A DNA stretch of 4,898 nucleotides from a virus (IMGVR_UViG_2778261453_000012); one strand, 5' to 3'; shown: positions 875 to 4,697, counted from the first letter of the stretch. Notes: generated from the sequence alone by a model not told the origin. Made by a program: numbers and translations.

Positions 875-903
875 ATTGTAAGGCAATACGCCGGAATGTA
901 CAA
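875..903 (-). promoter_or_regulatory. Candidate sigma70 promoter for the 553..825 gene: -35 TTGTAC (903..898), 17-nt spacer, -10 TACAAT (880..875)
   Basis: Read directly on the minus strand: tTTGTACattccggcgtattgcctTACAATtcgcg. The -10 is a 5/6 match to TATAAT; it sits about 50 nt upstream of the ATG at 825. Confidence 0.35.
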
Positions 904-930
904 ACAGAAAACCCGTCAGTAAGACGGGCT
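899..930 (-). terminator. Rho-independent terminator downstream of the BOF-family gene
   Basis: Minus strand: CCCGTC-ttact-GACGGG (plus 912-928) followed immediately by TTTTCTGTTTGT. A 6-bp GC-rich stem with U-tract, 19 nt after the stop at 947. Confidence 0.6.
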
Positions 931-946
931 TAACAAGCAGGGGCGG

Positions 947-1291
947 TTACTTTAATAATTTCAGTGCCTTTACATCAACTTCAACACTGCTCAGGTCTTT
1001 ATCAATTTCACCCTCAATTCTTACTTTGTCTTTCGGAGAAACATTCTGCCCGGCCCATACGCTGTCATCAATATCCGTGACAATTGTCCCGCTATTGTCA
1101 CGAAACTCATAACGTTCATCACCCACTTTTTTAACGATGCTCCCTTCAAGGATAACCCATGCATCATCCTTCAGTTCTTTTGCCTGCGCTACTGTTGAAC
1201 GCTCTGCTTCTGGCCCCTGGAAACCACCCTGCTGTGCAAAAGCGCCAAAAGACACACCGGAAATAAGTGCTGCAATCAATACCTTTTTCAT
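947..1291 (-). CDS. YgiW/YdeI (BOF, bacterial OB-fold) family periplasmic protein, 114 aa, with N-terminal signal peptide
   Basis: MKKVLIAALISGVSFGAFA|QQGGF...: typical Sec signal with AxA cleavage site, then the QGGF start characteristic of mature BOF proteins, and a C-terminal motif ...DKVRIEGEIDKDLSSVEVDVKALKLLK. SD AGAGGA 7 nt before the ATG. Confidence 0.8.
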   Translation of the reverse strand: MKKVLIAALISGVSFGAFAQQGGFQGPEAERSTVAQAKELKDDAWVILEGSIVKKVGDERYEFRDNSGTIVTDIDDSVWAGQNVSPKDKVRIEGEIDKDLSSVEVDVKALKLLK

Positions 1292-1348
1292 TCATAGTCC
1301 TCTTTCAGAGATGAACATTCAAACAGCATTTTCAGTATGGTAAAGCGC

Positions 1349-1403
1349 GGGTGCGTTGAGGATGCCTGACACATCAGAGGTGGCGGGAGATTACTCCCCC
1401 GCC
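1349..1403 (-). promoter_or_regulatory. 3' elements of the hok transcript: fbi-like box (1349-1361, CCUCAACGCACCC on the RNA) and a 3' stem-loop (1382-1403)
   Basis: The fbi-like box is complementary to the predicted mRNA 5' end GGGUGCUUGAGG (plus 1724-1735), 12 bp with one bulged C. The stem-loop GGCGGGGGAG-uaau-CUCCCGCC lies just after the hok stop and has no U-tract, so it is not a classic terminator. Confidence 0.45.
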
Positions 1404-1410
1404 TGGTCTC

Positions 1411-1566
1411 TTACTTCTCAGATTCGTAGTCTACGAAGACAGCGACCTCCGTCTGACCGGTTCGGATTCGCACCTCGCAGAGGTCTTTCCTCGTTACCAG
1501 TGCCGTCACTATGACGGTTAAACAGATGACGATCAGGGCGATTAACATCGCCTTTTGCTGCTTCAT
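1411..1566 (-). CDS. hokD: Hok/Gef family type I toxin (51 aa small membrane toxin), closest from memory to HokD/RelF
   Basis: MKQQKAMLIALIVICLTVIVTALVTRKDLCEVRIRTGQTEVAVFVDYESEK: hydrophobic TM segment followed by the conserved TRKDLCEV.IR.G..EVA.F motif of Hok proteins. SD AAGGAG about 8 nt upstream of the ATG at 1566. Confidence 0.85.
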   Translation of the reverse strand: MKQQKAMLIALIVICLTVIVTALVTRKDLCEVRIRTGQTEVAVFVDYESEK

Positions 1567-1623
1567 AGCCTGCTTCTCCTTGCCTTTCGGCACGTAAGAG
1601 GCTAACCTACATGTGTTCAGCAT
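1411..1623 (-). CDS. Mok-like leader reading frame (70 aa), in-frame N-terminal extension of hok starting 19 codons upstream
   Basis: ATG at 1621-1623 with upstream AGG (ctgAGGctcaatccATG). Extension MLNTCRLASYVPKGKEKQA precedes the hok Met. No start codon exists in the alternative frame that is open across hok. Confidence 0.4.
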   Translation of the reverse strand: MLNTCRLASYVPKGKEKQAMKQQKAMLIALIVICLTVIVTALVTRKDLCEVRIRTGQTEVAVFVDYESEK

Positions 1624-1692
1624 GGATTGAGCCTCAGATTAATGTTAAGCGTCTTGCAGGACGCGTAATGTTAACTGGGGCTTTTCTCTATC
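1615..1692 (+). ncRNA. Candidate Sok-like antisense RNA (about 70-80 nt), antisense to the hok leader and mok start
   Basis: Plus-strand candidate promoter -35 TTGCCT (1580-1585), 17-nt spacer, -10 TAACCT (1603-1608). Downstream imperfect inverted repeat 1633-1680 (outer stem CCTCAG/CTGGGG, inner GCGTC-ttgcag-GACGC, flanked by 9-bp direct repeats TAATGTTAA) followed by CTTTTCTCT. Position and length match what is expected for Sok. The -10 is weak. Confidence 0.35.
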
Positions 1693-1770
1693 TGCCGTTG
1701 GTGTTCATGCCCGAGGCAGATAGCCTCAAGCACCCGCAGCAATTCTACTTAACTATCCTTTTCCCGCAAA
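1688..1770 (-). promoter_or_regulatory. hok promoter and 5' leader: -35 TTGCGG (1769..1764), 16-nt spacer, -10 TAGAAT (1747..1742), predicted TSS near 1735, tac-like 5' box (1735..1724), leader stem with 9-bp perfect inverted repeat (1688-1696 / 1715-1723)
   Basis: Elements read directly from the sequence. The predicted transcript 5' end GGGUGCUUGAGGCUAUCUGCC resembles my memory of the R1 hok mRNA 5' end (GGCGCUUGAGGCUUUCUGCC). Confidence 0.45.
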
Positions 1771-1856
1771 CCGTTTTTATCCCCAGCGGCAAATCGAATA
1801 CACCACCAGCGCCACCGCCATCGCAATTCCTACCGTTGTGAATGCTTCAGGCCAGG

Positions 1857-2414
1857 TCATTGATTCACCTCCTGCGGCGGTTCTGGTAGCGACATCCAGT
1901 GGGTTGCTTGCCTAAGATCATTACCCGGACTAACTGCTATACCTCCGCGCCGGAACGTGCCTCCGAGATAGCGTGCGGAATATATTAATGGCCCAGCCTC
2001 GCTATCGATATTCATCGAAATAAGCACGTTCTGGCTCTTTTCAGGCATTCGCTCAGTACAGCTTATCCAGCCATCCAGAGTTATCGGAGATCTGGTTGAC
2101 GTTTCCGAGATTTCCCGAAAATTGTTGGTTGACGAATTCTTATTTTCCCGAAAGTTTCCGGCCTGAAGCATGGCGACGCGGCAGGCGTTCCAGCCATCAG
2201 CATATGTTTTAGTTACACCGTCGAGATGGCAGGTAAGCAAATCCATTTCATCAGGCACTACCATTGCTATCGGCTCTGCTTCCAGTGATGCCAGCGCGAT
2301 ACGAAACACATTAGCCAGCAGGCTGTCTGAAGACTTGTTATCGTGCGCCGAGTCGCTCAGGAAGCCTGTGATGTATGATTTAATCTCCGCGCGTTCTCTG
2401 GTAATAGTGCTCAT
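1857..2414 (-). CDS. DUF551-type prophage protein, 185 aa (variable N-terminal domain plus C-terminal DUF551-like domain)
   Basis: C-terminal region ...DGWISCTERMPEKSQNVLISMN...ATHWMSLPEPPQEV matches the W-I-S-x-x-E-R-(L/M)-P-E ... T-H-W-M-P-L-P-E-P-P signature I recall for DUF551. ATG at 2412-2414 is one nt after the stop of the upstream gene, with AAGGA inside that gene's 3' end. Confidence 0.75.
   Translation of the reverse strand: MSTITRERAEIKSYITGFLSDSAHDNKSSDSLLANVFRIALASLEAEPIAMVVPDEMDLLTCHLDGVTKTYADGWNACRVAMLQAGNFRENKNSSTNNFREISETSTRSPITLDGWISCTERMPEKSQNVLISMNIDSEAGPLIYSARYLGGTFRRGGIAVSPGNDLRQATHWMSLPEPPQEVNQ
2094..2159 (-). repeat. Imperfect tandem duplication of a 33-bp (11-codon) unit inside the DUF551-protein gene
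   Basis: ggttgacg at 2094-2101 and again at 2127-2134; tttcccgaaa at 2111-2120 and 2144-2153. Protein-level repeat NFRENKNSSTN / NFREISETSTR in the inter-domain linker. Confidence 0.55.
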
Positions 2415-3603: not shown

Positions 3604-4266
3604 TCACCGCTGCTGTTCTCTGGTGGCGGTAATATCCCGGAGAATATCCCGGCACTTGTTCAGCTCCCGCAGCGCGGCGCAGACTCGCTCCCACTTCTGA
3701 ACCTGACCTTTTGCCCGGCGCAGCTCGCGGTTAGCCACATGCAGCGATGGTAAAATCAGACCATCCGGATGCTTTCTGGTGAACGACGGCTGTGACTGCA
3801 CTGTGACCGCCACACTTTCCGTTTTTATTTCTTCCTGTGTTTCCGCTTCCCCGACTGGTAACGCAACACCTGCTGGCTGAGGAAAGGCTTTACCATCCGT
3901 TTCCGTTATGGATGCGGCTTTCGGCTCTGCCGGTAAATCAGCGCCCGGTATGCAGTACCGAAATTTACCGCCCTGATTCACGCGAATCAGACGCCCTTTG
4001 CTGATTGCCATGGCCAGTGATGAATTCGCCCGGCGGGAGGTAATCCCGAACATCAGTGCCAGCTCATCCGCCGTTTGTGGGCCATGATGTTCAATCGCCT
4101 CAGTCAGCATTTGCGCTGTCACTTTCGGTACCGGTGACACTGGTTCACTTTCACCAGCCTGAATCAGCCACCACATCGAACCCTTGTTATCCGCTTCACC
4201 ACGGCGCTTCAGTTTCCACAGTTCGTTGACAGCATCTTCGCGGCTGATTCCAAGGCGCGATGCCAC
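3604..4266 (-). CDS. Hypothetical winged-helix-like DNA-binding protein, 220 aa (start uncertain: GTG 4266 overlapping the DnaC-like stop, or internal ATG near 4176 with AAGG SD)
   Basis: Segments [21 protein letters not shown] and [39 protein letters not shown] look like winged-helix motifs; the C-terminus is charged and helical-looking ([31 protein letters not shown]). Confidence 0.6.
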
Positions 4267-4697
4267 TACACGCTCATGACATCAGACACGGTGACGATAA
4301 TCACGCTGCGCCCCTTCGCCATCAGCCGGTTACCCATCGCCGCTGCAAGGTGATTTTTCCCGGTGCCGGTTTTACCGCTGAACACAAAATTCGTGCACCC
4401 GGTCATCAGTTCGTCAGCTATGGATTTGGCCTGGCTCAGCGCGTATTTTTGCCCGTCGTTCTGCACCTGATAATTCGCAAACGAGCATTTGCTGTGCAGA
4501 GGCTGGATGCCCGAACGATTCAGGATTTTTTCCACCCGCAACTGGTGATTCTGGCGGTTAATCTCCTCGCTGCGTTTTCGTCCTTCAACAAGTTGCCATT
4601 CCCGCCACTCCTCCACCGTCCGGTACGGTGGAACCGACGCCTGTGGTGCAAGTCTGCGAATACGTTCAAGAACCCCGGCTGCCGCAATGTTTTTCAT
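4266..4697 (-). CDS. DnaC-family replicative helicase loader homologue, truncated: 143 aa covering the N-terminal region and Walker A only
   Basis: ...[73 protein letters not shown] aligns to E. coli DnaC (NCSFENY...[18 protein letters not shown]...GKSVLIITVADIMSAM) as I remember it. The ORF ends with TAG where DnaC continues about 100 more residues (Walker B DLLVIDE absent). SD AGGGGG upstream. Confidence 0.75.

What the first reader, a model, noticed from the sequence alone, without database searches (positions are those of the whole stretch)
1335..1770. Complete-looking hok/mok/sok-type type I toxin-antitoxin locus with all cis elements present
Beyond the Hok ORF, the sequence shows every element expected of a functional locus: a promoter (-35 1764-1769, -10 1742-1747); a predicted mRNA 5' end GGGUGCUUGAGG that can pair with a 3' box CCUCAACGCACCC (1349-1361), i.e. 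tac/fbi-like fold-back inhibition; a 9-bp perfect inverted repeat in the leader (1688-1696 / 1715-1723); an upstream mok-like start; and a 3' stem-loop. As far as I recall, the K-12 hokD/relF copy lacks its own upstream regulatory region, so an intact copy inside a prophage is notable. hok/sok loci are reported to act in post-segregational killing and in phage exclusion.
Basis: partly seen in the sequence, partly recalled or inferred. Interest (0 to 1): 0.55.

Follow-up and report, generated by a model that had tools for sequence, protein, structure and literature searches.

The report
Known hokW-sokW toxin-antitoxin copy
This is an intact second copy of hokW-sokW, a small membrane-toxin gene silenced by an antisense RNA, which has already been characterised in an E. 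coli O157 Shiga-toxin prophage, so the finding is correct but ordinary.

Summary
The minus strand of 1349-1769 carries a complete hok/mok/sok-type type I toxin-antitoxin locus. It has a 51-aa Hok/Gef toxin (PF01848) and an in-frame 70-aa mok ORF. The leader matches the whole Rfam hok-leader model at 113.5 bits. The 5' tac element pairs with the 3' fbi box 1349-1361 in the minimum-energy and centroid folds; 5 of 2000 shuffles do as well, and the pairing is conserved and covaries in relatives. The leader 9-bp helix and the GC-rich 3' stem-loop are also present. I add the convergent sok gene on the plus strand (-35 1580-1585, -10 1603-1608, RNA about 1615-1689).

It is not new. Within 1335-1770 it differs at three neutral positions from hokW-sokW of Sakai prophage Sp5, which Takada et al. 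2021 showed to be a working type I system. The same toxin protein occurs in thousands of assemblies. The recollection that K-12 hokD lacks its leader is correct.

One caveat applies to "all cis elements": the intrinsic terminator that follows fbi in relatives is missing here, replaced by a BOF/YgiW-family gene. Interest is low.

The parts
1764..1769 (-). hok (hokW-type) promoter -35, TTGCGG
   Evidence: Sequence. 16-nt spacer to the -10. Only 3 of 6 match consensus, so the scan did not call it. Assignment rests on position and homology.
1742..1747 (-). hok promoter -10, TAGAAT; predicted TSS G1735 seven nt downstream
   Evidence: A -10-like hexamer (TAGAAT/TAAGAT/TACAAT/TATAAT) lies at the same distance from GGGUGC in relatives whose upstream DNA is otherwise unrelated. 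The Rfam model starts at 1735.
1349..1735 (-). hok mRNA from the predicted 5' end to the end of fbi (387 nt); true 3' end unknown
   Evidence: MFE -160.9 to -162.6 kcal/mol; z = -7.65 against shuffles. Differs at 2 transcribed positions from Sp5 hokW.
1724..1735 (-). tac (translational activator element), GGGUGCUUGAGG
   Evidence: Pairs with fbi in the full-length fold. Pairs with nt 19-29 (1717-1707) in nascent 30-50-nt fragments. Pairs with ucb in the 60-70-nt and 140-nt fragments and in the Rfam consensus.
1688..1723 (-). Leader hairpin containing the 9-bp perfect inverted repeat (1715-1723 / 1688-1696)
   Evidence: Conserved helix with compensatory changes (helix 2).
1677..1683 (-). ucb / anti-SD (AAGCCCC): pairs with the mok SD in the closed form and with tac in the open form
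   Evidence: The tac/ucb helix is 99% paired but invariant in 34 relatives.
1632..1635 (-). mok Shine-Dalgarno, GAGG
   Evidence: Paired to nt 56-59 in the full-length MFE; mean unpaired probability 0.25. 8 nt upstream of the mok ATG.
1411..1623 (-). mok-like ORF, 70 aa, in frame with hok (MokW-type)
   Evidence: Same arrangement as K-12 mokC/hokC. Annotated 'MokW' in phage records.
1598..1603 (-). dcb (AGCCUC): pairs with the mok SD region in the open conformation
   Evidence: Constrained fold. Rfam consensus helix. Core pairs kept in 32-33 of 34 relatives (helix 5).
1411..1566 (-). hok toxin ORF, 51 aa, identical to HokW; SD AGGAG at 1576-1580
   Evidence: PF01848 81 bits. PHROG 251 'MokW-like host killing'. 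PGAP protein WP_000813258.1. No amino-acid difference from Sp5 HokW.
1419..1433 (-). Hairpin with 7-nt loop CUACGAA presenting the Tyr47 codon UAC (1426-1428): predicted TadA A-to-I editing site (Tyr to Cys)
   Evidence: Structure. TACGAA is invariant in all 34 aligned hok mRNAs. Editing is reported for hokB/C/D/E (PMC12214031). Not tested for this copy.
1382..1403 (-). GC-rich 3' stem-loop after the hok stop; expected protective 3' end of the processed, active mRNA
   Evidence: Conserved helix (helix 4). Role taken from R1 work (PMC9841398).
1349..1361 (-). fbi (fold-back inhibitory element), CCUCAACGCACCC
1580..1585 (+). sok promoter -35, TTGCCT
   Evidence: Sequence. 17-nt spacer to the -10. 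Overlaps the invariant CAAGGAG region of hok mRNA.
1603..1608 (+). sok promoter -10, TAACCT
   Evidence: Primers YO-421/422 of Takada et al. replace exactly 1602-1609 to make the promoter-less sokW mutant that unmasks toxicity.
1615..1689 (+). Sok antisense RNA (SokW-type), about 75 nt. A 5' single-stranded tail is complementary to the mok start and to the YUNR loop CUGA (1620-1617); then a long hairpin and a U-rich tail.
   Evidence: 5' end inferred from K-12 sokC, which starts 8 nt inside mokC, and from Takada probe YO-592, which ends at 1615. Fold -31.5 kcal/mol, z = -5.2. 3' end inferred.

Best explanation
The interval is a functional-looking paralog of hokW-sokW, a hok/mok/sok-family type I toxin-antitoxin cassette. 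It sits in the early-right (replication to Q) region of a lambdoid prophage of the E. coli O157:H7/O145 type.

Expected mechanism, by analogy with plasmid R1 parB:
1. A weak constitutive promoter (1769-1742) makes a stable hok mRNA starting at G1735.
2. While nascent, the 5' tac element is held in a local hairpin (nt 3-29).
3. Once the 3' UTR is made, tac pairs with fbi (1361-1349) and ucb (1683-1677) covers the mok Shine-Dalgarno. The full-length RNA is then neither translated nor bound by Sok.
4. Slow 3' trimming back to the GC-rich stem-loop (1403-1382) removes fbi. tac then pairs with ucb, and the mok start region is presented in a hairpin whose CUGA loop is the entry point for Sok.
5. Sok (plus strand, about 1615-1689, from TTGCCT-17-TAACCT) is abundant and unstable. 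It pairs with the mok initiation region, blocks mok and the coupled hok translation, and marks the duplex for RNase III.
6. When Sok synthesis stops, the stored mRNA is translated and the 51-aa Hok peptide (or the in-frame 70-aa Mok-Hok form) damages the inner membrane.

What is shown and what is inferred:
- Shown here: the sequence elements, the predicted folds and their conservation.
- Shown elsewhere for the 99.3%-identical Sp5 copy: toxicity, rescue by sokW, partial RNase III/Hfq dependence, and loss of SokW with HokW production on prophage induction.
- Inferred for this copy: expression, processing, and the biological role.
For: - Family match: Rfam RF01794 covers model positions 1-157 at 113.5 bits (gathering 59) on 1735-1561. 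Hok matches PF01848 at E = 4e-23.
- Closed form: tac/fbi and ucb/SD-mok pairings appear in the MFE and centroid, whichever 3' end is used.
- Chance control: tac/fbi duplex -21.5 kcal/mol against -13.7 +/- 2.1 in shuffles (5 of 2000).
- Relatives: an fbi is found 45-56 nt after the stop codon with matching sequence changes. Examples are GGGUGC/GCACCC versus GGCGC/GCGCC, and GAGG/CCUC versus GAAG/CUUC versus GAGA/UCUC. Column 4/430 is UA:20 and CG:11.
- Switch: the tac/ucb conformation costs 10.0 kcal/mol in the full-length RNA but only 0.1-2.1 kcal/mol after trimming.
- Sok: the fold has the expected tail, hairpin and U-run architecture (z = -5.2).
- Identity to a tested locus: only 3 differences from Sp5 hokW-sokW within 1335-1770. 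They lie in the promoter spacer (1755), a hairpin loop (1658) and an added base pair at the 3' stem (1403). Takada et al. primers and probes match the window. Function of the Sp5 locus is shown in PMC8621323.
- R1 mechanism: definitions from PMC9841398.
Against: - No transcript or protein data exist for this copy.
- The consensus scan calls neither promoter nor any terminator.
- The unconstrained MFE of the trimmed RNA keeps the metastable 5' hairpin and the ucb/SD pairing rather than the tac/ucb form. The in-silico switch is therefore near-degenerate, not decisive.
- The terminator that follows fbi in relatives is missing, so the mature 3' end and the trimming route are unknown.
- The host prophage looks replication-defective (truncated DnaC-like gene).
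- Some chromosomal hok loci did not give post-segregational killing in earlier work (cited).
Confidence: 0.9

Rival explanations
1. Silent relic. The locus is intact in sequence but not expressed or not activatable in its present place, as reported for several chromosomal hok loci. It would then be a passenger of a decaying prophage with no current effect.
For: - The prophage carries an about 391-bp deletion that truncates the DnaC-like replication gene and DUF1627.
- In another strain an IS1203 copy sits about 1.4 kb upstream of the cassette.
- Chromosomal hokA/B/C loci failed to give post-segregational killing (cited).
- The -35 is weak.
Against: - There are no disabling changes: three neutral differences from a copy shown to be expressed and toxic.
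- The identical RNA region occurs in several independent assemblies (L058, L060, L062, L063 and L065 have 0 mismatches).
- R1 hok is toxic from single chromosomal copy (PMC9841398).
Confidence: 0.07
2. Operon-embedded variant. Because the usual terminator is replaced by a BOF/YgiW-family gene, and hok lies in the sense direction inside the prophage early operon, the relevant hok RNA may not be the discrete tac-to-fbi transcript. It may instead be part of longer transcripts: a hok-BOF bicistron, or read-through from upstream early genes. Activation would then be set by induction-driven read-through that also occludes the convergent sok promoter, not by slow 3' trimming.
For: - No terminator-like site on either strand in 1200-1900.
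- All BOF-linked copies lack the terminator, and copies without BOF keep it or a remnant of it.
- All ORFs of the window are on the hok strand.
- SokW disappears and HokW appears only on RecA-dependent prophage induction in Sp5.
- In Sp5, hokW lies downstream of int across attP in the pL direction.
Against: - tac/fbi, ucb, dcb and the 3' stem-loop are all conserved, which argues that the discrete-transcript mechanism is still under selection.
- tac/fbi still forms in a fold extended to 1300.
- hokW mRNA is present before induction and does not rise afterwards.
Confidence: 0.2

Closest known systems
hokW-sokW of Sakai prophage Sp5 / phage VT2-Sakai (Takada et al. 2021, Toxins 13:796)
   Same: - The toxin protein is identical.
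- 433 of 436 nt are identical across 1335-1770, covering promoter, leader, sok promoter, 3' UTR and the downstream BOF gene junction.
- The 27-aa upstream ORF and the BOF gene travel with it; 97.4% identity over window 900-1901.
   Different: - It is a separate copy in another prophage region. Here it lies between DUF551 and BOF/DUF968/RusA in the early-right region. In Sp5 it lies at the attR-side end, downstream of int across attP.
- Three single-base differences: 1755, 1658 and 1403.
hok/mok/sok (parB) of plasmid R1
   Same: - Same set of elements in the same order: tac, metastable partner, leader helix, ucb, sok target, mok SD and start, dcb, hok SD, hok, 3' stem-loop, fbi, and a convergent sok promoter.
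- Leader length is 169 nt against 168 nt.
   Different: - HokW is 44% identical to R1 Hok.
- mok is in frame here. As I recall the canonical R1 sequence, its mok is out of frame; an R1-type variant fetched here is in frame.
- The sok-target hairpin is longer than the Rfam consensus by about 16 nt.
- No terminator follows fbi here.
- The carrier is a prophage, not a plasmid.
hokC/mokC/sokC (gef) of E. coli K-12
   Same: - Identical tac sequence.
- mok is in frame, 19 codons upstream of hok.
- Sok starts 8 nt inside mok.
   Different: - About 80% protein identity.
- The leader is shorter (150 nt).
- In K-12, IS186 lies immediately downstream of hokC and no equivalent fbi is found there, the best tac match being weaker and displaced.
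hokD (relF) of the K-12 Qin prophage
   Same: - 47 of 51 residues are identical.
- Homologous from the hok SD through fbi (window ~1343-1580).
- Comparable prophage neighbourhood, next to DUF968/ydfU.
   Different: - K-12 lacks tac, ucb, the mok start and the sok promoter; relE sits upstream.
- K-12 keeps the terminator after fbi that the window lacks.

Membership tests
[quoted passage not shown] | Small hydrophobic Hok/Gef-family toxin ORF (about 50 aa) | tested here: met
   PF01848, 81.1 bits against a cut-off of 22, profile positions 1-42 of 42. PHROG 251.
[quoted passage not shown] | Structured hok mRNA leader (tac stem, sok-target hairpin, SD-mok/dcb hairpin, hok SD hairpin) | tested here: met
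   Rfam RF01794 full-length match, 113.5 bits against gathering 59, E = 3.7e-26. Helices are conserved in 34 relatives.
[quoted passage not shown] | Overlapping upstream mok ORF with its own SD, to which hok translation is coupled | tested here: met
   ATG 1623 with GAGG 8 nt upstream; 70-aa ORF in frame with hok, as in K-12 mokC. Translational coupling itself was not tested.
[quoted passage not shown] | Long-range 5'-3' pairing (tac/fbi) that closes the full-length mRNA | tested here: met
   Present in MFE and centroid. 5 of 2000 shuffles reach the duplex energy. Conserved position and compensatory changes in relatives.
[quoted passage not shown] | Refolding to a tac/ucb 'open' form after loss of the 3' end | tested here: inconclusive
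   The open form costs 10.0 kcal/mol in full-length RNA and only 0.1-2.1 kcal/mol in trimmed RNA, but it is not the unconstrained MFE. The tac/ucb pairs are invariant, so covariation gives no information.
[quoted passage not shown] | Cis-encoded antisense Sok RNA from a convergent promoter, complementary to the mok initiation region | tested here: met
   TTGCCT-17-TAACCT at 1580-1608. Predicted RNA has a 5' tail, a hairpin and a U-run (z = -5.2). Its position matches K-12 sokC and the sokW promoter mutation and probe of Takada et al.. Met at sequence level only.
[quoted passage not shown] | Stable 3' stem-loop that ends the processed mRNA | tested here: met
   9-bp GC-rich hairpin at 1403-1382. 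94.9% of cells paired in relatives.
[quoted passage not shown] | Own transcription terminator downstream of fbi | tested here: not met
   No terminator-like site in 1200-1900. Relatives have AACCCGC-TTCG-GCGGGTT plus a T-run 6 nt after fbi, which is absent here and in Sp5. This is a usual feature of the family rather than a strictly defining one.
[quoted passage not shown] | Toxicity of Hok and neutralisation by Sok | not testable with these tools
   Shown for the Sp5 copy, which has the identical toxin and a Sok differing at one loop base (PMC8621323).
hokW-sokW (Sp5) subtype | Near-identity of toxin, leader, sok and the BOF-gene junction | tested here: met
   3 differences in 436 nt and an identical protein. 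The same junction sequence follows fbi.

The most novel reading that the evidence does not exclude
hokW-type cassettes may be wired as sensors of prophage induction. They have lost the family's own terminator and are fused to a BOF/YgiW-family gene. They also sit in the sense direction downstream of prophage early operons: the pR-side operon here, and the pL operon across attP in Sp5, which reaches hokW only after excision. Antiterminated early transcription would then run through the cassette and occlude the convergent sok promoter, releasing HokW. This would explain the unexplained RecA- and induction-dependent loss of SokW reported for Sp5. Near-identical Sok RNAs from two prophages in one genome could also cross-protect each other's toxin mRNAs.
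Probability: 0.2. Interest if true: 0.45.

Novelty: already known. Interest (0 to 1): 0.12.

Why it matters
For annotation, the region should be labelled hokW/mokW/sokW-type. PGAP calls only 'Hok/Gef family protein' and misses mok and sok. For biology, O157-type genomes can carry more than one near-identical hokW-sokW copy. Phenotypes measured with Sp5 alone in K-12 may therefore be buffered or amplified in the native strain. The missing terminator, the linked BOF gene and the orientation within early operons give a concrete, testable idea for how induction switches the toxin on. None of this changes the basic picture of hok/sok biology.

Tried and rejected
- Consensus promoter/terminator scan of 1200-1900 found nothing on either strand. 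Promoter assignments therefore rest on homology and on published mutagenesis, not on this scan.\n- Unconstrained folding of 3'-trimmed RNAs did not give the published tac/ucb open form; it gave the metastable 5' hairpin. The open form had to be evaluated by constraint.\n- The MAFFT alignment misregisters the distal half of tac/fbi in Photorhabdus copies, which have no bulge and a one-nt-shorter tac. About 10-11 'unpaired' cells at columns 8, 10 and 12 are therefore artefacts. Spurious 'tac' matches in L008, L026, L027, L038 and L040 were discarded.\n- The Rfam 'sok' hit is on the hok-mRNA strand and is not evidence for Sok RNA itself.\n- Sub-threshold Rfam hits ceN48 and sR2 were rejected as chance.\n- No phage record holds more than about 30% of the window. 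No listed genome matches all 4898 bases in one piece, so the exact source prophage was not pinned down.\n- I did not use the protein-database searches, structure prediction or covariance-model building. The answer did not need them.

Full report
**What is there**

The window is a stretch of a lambdoid prophage of the E. coli O157:H7/O145 type. All substantial ORFs lie on the minus strand. In order they are a truncated DnaC/IstB-like ATPase, DUF1627, three small ORFs, DUF4014, DUF551, a 27-aa hydrophobic ORF, hok, a BOF/YgiW-family gene, and a 90-aa ORF leading into DUF968/RusA/Q-like genes in related genomes. The 561 bases around the finding are 100% identical to O157:H7 chromosomes, and some homolog is present in 4731 of 5426 complete E. 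coli genomes.

**Check of the observation**

- The Hok ORF is 1566-1411: 51 aa, PF01848 at 81 bits.
- An upstream ATG at 1623 has GAGG 8 nt before it. It opens a 70-aa ORF in frame with hok. This is the same arrangement as K-12 mokC/hokC, which share a stop codon and differ by 57 nt.
- Rfam RF01794 matches 1735-1561 over its whole length at 113.5 bits (gathering 59). That model is named 'sok' but lies in the hok-mRNA sense orientation. It starts with the tac sequence and ends at the hok AUG, so it certifies the leader and not the antisense RNA.
- The promoter hexamers are TTGCGG (1769-1764) and TAGAAT (1747-1742), with a 16-nt spacer and G1735 seven nt downstream. The consensus scan does not call them. 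However, a -10-like hexamer sits at exactly this distance from GGGUGC in relatives whose upstream DNA is otherwise unrelated.

**Fold-back inhibition**

With any 3' end from 1349 to 1300, the minimum-energy structure pairs nt 1-12 with 1349-1361 (12 bp, C1355 bulged). It also pairs the mok Shine-Dalgarno with GCCCC at nt 56-59, which is ucb. The centroid agrees, and the 390-nt RNA is far more stable than shuffles (z = -7.65).

The tac/fbi duplex energy is -21.5 kcal/mol, against -13.7 +/- 2.1 for dinucleotide shuffles of the 3' UTR; 5 of 2000 shuffles reach it.

In loci fetched from other Escherichia, Kluyvera, Citrobacter, Pantoea, Erwinia and Photorhabdus genomes, a complement to the 5' end lies 45-56 nt after the stop codon. 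It changes together with the 5' end: GGGUGC/GCACCC versus GGCGC/GCGCC, and GAGG/CCUC versus GAAG/CUUC versus GAGA/UCUC. On the 34-sequence alignment the closed structure is 89.9% paired, against 41-48% when partners are slid. Column 4/430 shows UA:20 and CG:11.

So is the 3' stem-loop at 1403-1382 (94.9% paired).

**The switch**

Nascent fragments of 30-50 nt fold tac into a local hairpin with nt 19-29. The 60-70-nt fragments fold into the long tac/ucb hairpin.

Enforcing tac/ucb costs 10.0 kcal/mol in the full-length RNA but only 0.1-2.1 kcal/mol once the RNA is trimmed to the 3' stem-loop. In that form the mok SD pairs with AGCCUC (dcb), and a CUGA (YUNR) loop is presented opposite the Sok 5' end.

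This reproduces the published R1 scheme of closed full-length, open truncated and metastable nascent forms (PMC9841398). The trimmed-RNA result is a near-tie, not a clear prediction.

**The antitoxin**

On the plus strand, TTGCCT (1580-1585), a 17-nt spacer and TAACCT (1603-1608) precede a predicted 75-nt RNA (1615-1689). It has a 9-nt free 5' tail, a long hairpin and a U-rich end (-31.5 kcal/mol, z = -5.2).

The 5' end is placed in two ways. K-12 sokC begins 8 nt inside mokC. The published sokW probe YO-592 also ends exactly at 1615. The published promoter-less sokW mutant replaces exactly 1602-1609.

**Identity**

The primers and probes in Takada et al. 2021 (PMC8621323) match the window. 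Aligned to VT2-Sakai/Sp5, the interval 1335-1770 differs at three positions:
- 1755, in the promoter spacer.
- 1658, in the loop of the leader hairpin and of the Sok hairpin.
- 1403, which adds a base pair to the 3' stem.

HokW is identical. That paper shows HokW is toxic and that sokW from its own promoter neutralises it, partly through RNase III and Hfq. It also shows that both RNAs are present in lysogens, that SokW disappears and HokW accumulates in the inner membrane upon RecA-dependent induction, and that phage release is halved without the locus.

The window copy is a paralog in a different prophage region. In Sp5 the locus sits at the attR-side end. Here it lies between the replication genes and the Q-type genes. 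The exact toxin sequence is on record in more than 10,000 blocks of the assembly collection, in several contexts. Enrichment of hok in prophages has been described (bioRxiv 10.1101/2025.08.07.668861).

**K-12 comparison**

K-12 hokD aligns with the window only from about 1580 to about 1343. It therefore keeps the SD, the ORF, the 3' stem-loop and fbi, but has relE where the leader should be. This agrees with the literature statement that hokD was inactivated by rearrangement (PMC12214031).

**What does not fit 'all cis elements'**

Relatives of the hokD type have a textbook intrinsic terminator 6 nt after fbi: AACCCGC-TTCG-GCGGGTT followed by a T-run. The window and Sp5 lack it. Homology breaks at about 1343, and the BOF gene starts 54 nt after fbi.

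Across ten further contexts of the identical toxin, every BOF-linked copy lacks the terminator, including a diverged one. Copies without BOF keep it or a remnant of it. No terminator-like site is found on either strand in 1200-1900. The 3' end of the primary transcript is therefore unknown, and read-through into the BOF gene is likely. The tac/fbi pairing survives in a fold extended to 1300.

**Additional layer**

The Tyr47 codon UAC (1428-1426) lies in a 7-nt loop, CUACGAA, closed by a 4-bp stem. TACGAA is invariant in all 34 aligned hok mRNAs. This is the TadA editing motif, and Tyr-to-Cys editing at the equivalent position is reported for hokC, hokD and hokE. It is predicted here, not shown.

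**Mechanism and role**

The molecular mechanism is most likely the classical one (confidence about 0.9). The biological role of this copy is open:
- Prophage stabilisation, or help with lysis on induction as in Sp5. Both are plausible.
- Exclusion of other phages, as reported for R1 hok/sok against T4 (cited). This is possible.
- The host prophage looks replication-defective, with an about 391-bp deletion across the DnaC-like/DUF1627 junction. Its copy may therefore matter mainly through cross-talk with the Sp5 copy, since the two Sok RNAs differ at one loop base. That is inference.

A more speculative reading concerns transcription. hok lies in the sense direction downstream of early operons in both prophages. 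In Sp5 it is downstream only after circularisation, because int is at the opposite prophage end on the same strand. Read-through early transcription could therefore silence the convergent sok promoter on induction.

**Verdict**

The locus is an already characterised and very common element, so interest is low.

Noticed in passing
window 1292-1348 (minus strand), with L002, L005, L006, L009, L020 and L056-L065: The intrinsic terminator that follows fbi in hokD-type relatives is absent. It is replaced by the upstream region of a BOF/YgiW-family gene (947-1291). Every BOF-linked copy lacks the terminator, and copies without BOF keep it or a remnant of it. This suggests hok-BOF co-transcription.
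   Followed up: partly
window 1419-1433 (minus strand); Tyr47 codon 1426-1428: Hairpin with loop CUACGAA, a TadA/tRNA-Arg-like A-to-I editing motif that would recode Tyr47 to Cys. TACGAA is invariant in all 34 aligned hok mRNAs.
   Followed up: partly
window 1777-1860 (minus strand): 27-aa hydrophobic ORF (MTWPEAFTTVGIAMAVALVVYSICRWG). Its ATG overlaps the DUF551 stop (ATGA) and it ends 8 nt before the hok -35. It has no Pfam or PHROG match. It is present in Sp5 with 11 base differences, including several amino-acid changes.
   Followed up: partly
window 4266-4697 and 3604-4266 (minus strand): The DnaC/IstB-like ATPase is cut to 143 aa (248 aa in related prophages), and DUF1627 is 220 aa instead of 238 aa. 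The two ORFs abut at 4266, and related genomes have about 391 extra bases here. The prophage is probably replication-defective.
   Followed up: partly
window 1561-1735 (Rfam hit): The Rfam family RF01794, named 'sok antitoxin', is modelled on the hok-mRNA sense strand (tac to the hok AUG). A hit marks the toxin leader, not the antisense RNA.
   Followed up: yes
L054, L066 and L067 (Sp5 / VT2-Sakai): In Sp5, int is at the left prophage end and hokW at the right end near attR, both on the same strand. pL transcription can reach hokW only after excision and circularisation. This is a possible explanation for induction-dependent SokW loss.
   Followed up: partly
L057, L059, L061 and L064 (contexts of the identical Hok protein): The hok/sok cassette sits at a variable cargo spot upstream of DUF968/RusA. 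Downstream there may be a BOF gene, a 119-aa ORF plus a weak Peptidase_U49-like ORF, or nothing. One copy lies beside IS1 copies and a GhoT/OrtT-family toxin gene.
   Followed up: no
L052 (plasmid NZ_CP037905.1) and other 90-100-kb plasmids: Non-mobilizable plasmids of about 90-100 kb carry 87%-identical hokD-type loci with a full leader and fbi. In the one I inspected (L052) the locus lies about 1.3 kb from a phage antirepressor KilAC-domain gene, which suggests a phage-plasmid.
   Followed up: no
L014 and L022; H101: Very short contigs labelled Acinetobacter idrijaensis and Xanthomonas pisi encode 91-100% identical HokW and are probably contamination. A record named Actinobacillus phage vB_Apl-pPE4 carries an 88%-identical stretch of this prophage region.
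   Followed up: no
L051 (IncFII plasmid, R1-type hok): In this R1-type variant mok is in frame with hok (57-nt offset), and PGAP annotates only a shortened 33-aa Hok. The mok reading frame relative to hok is therefore not fixed within the family.
   Followed up: partly
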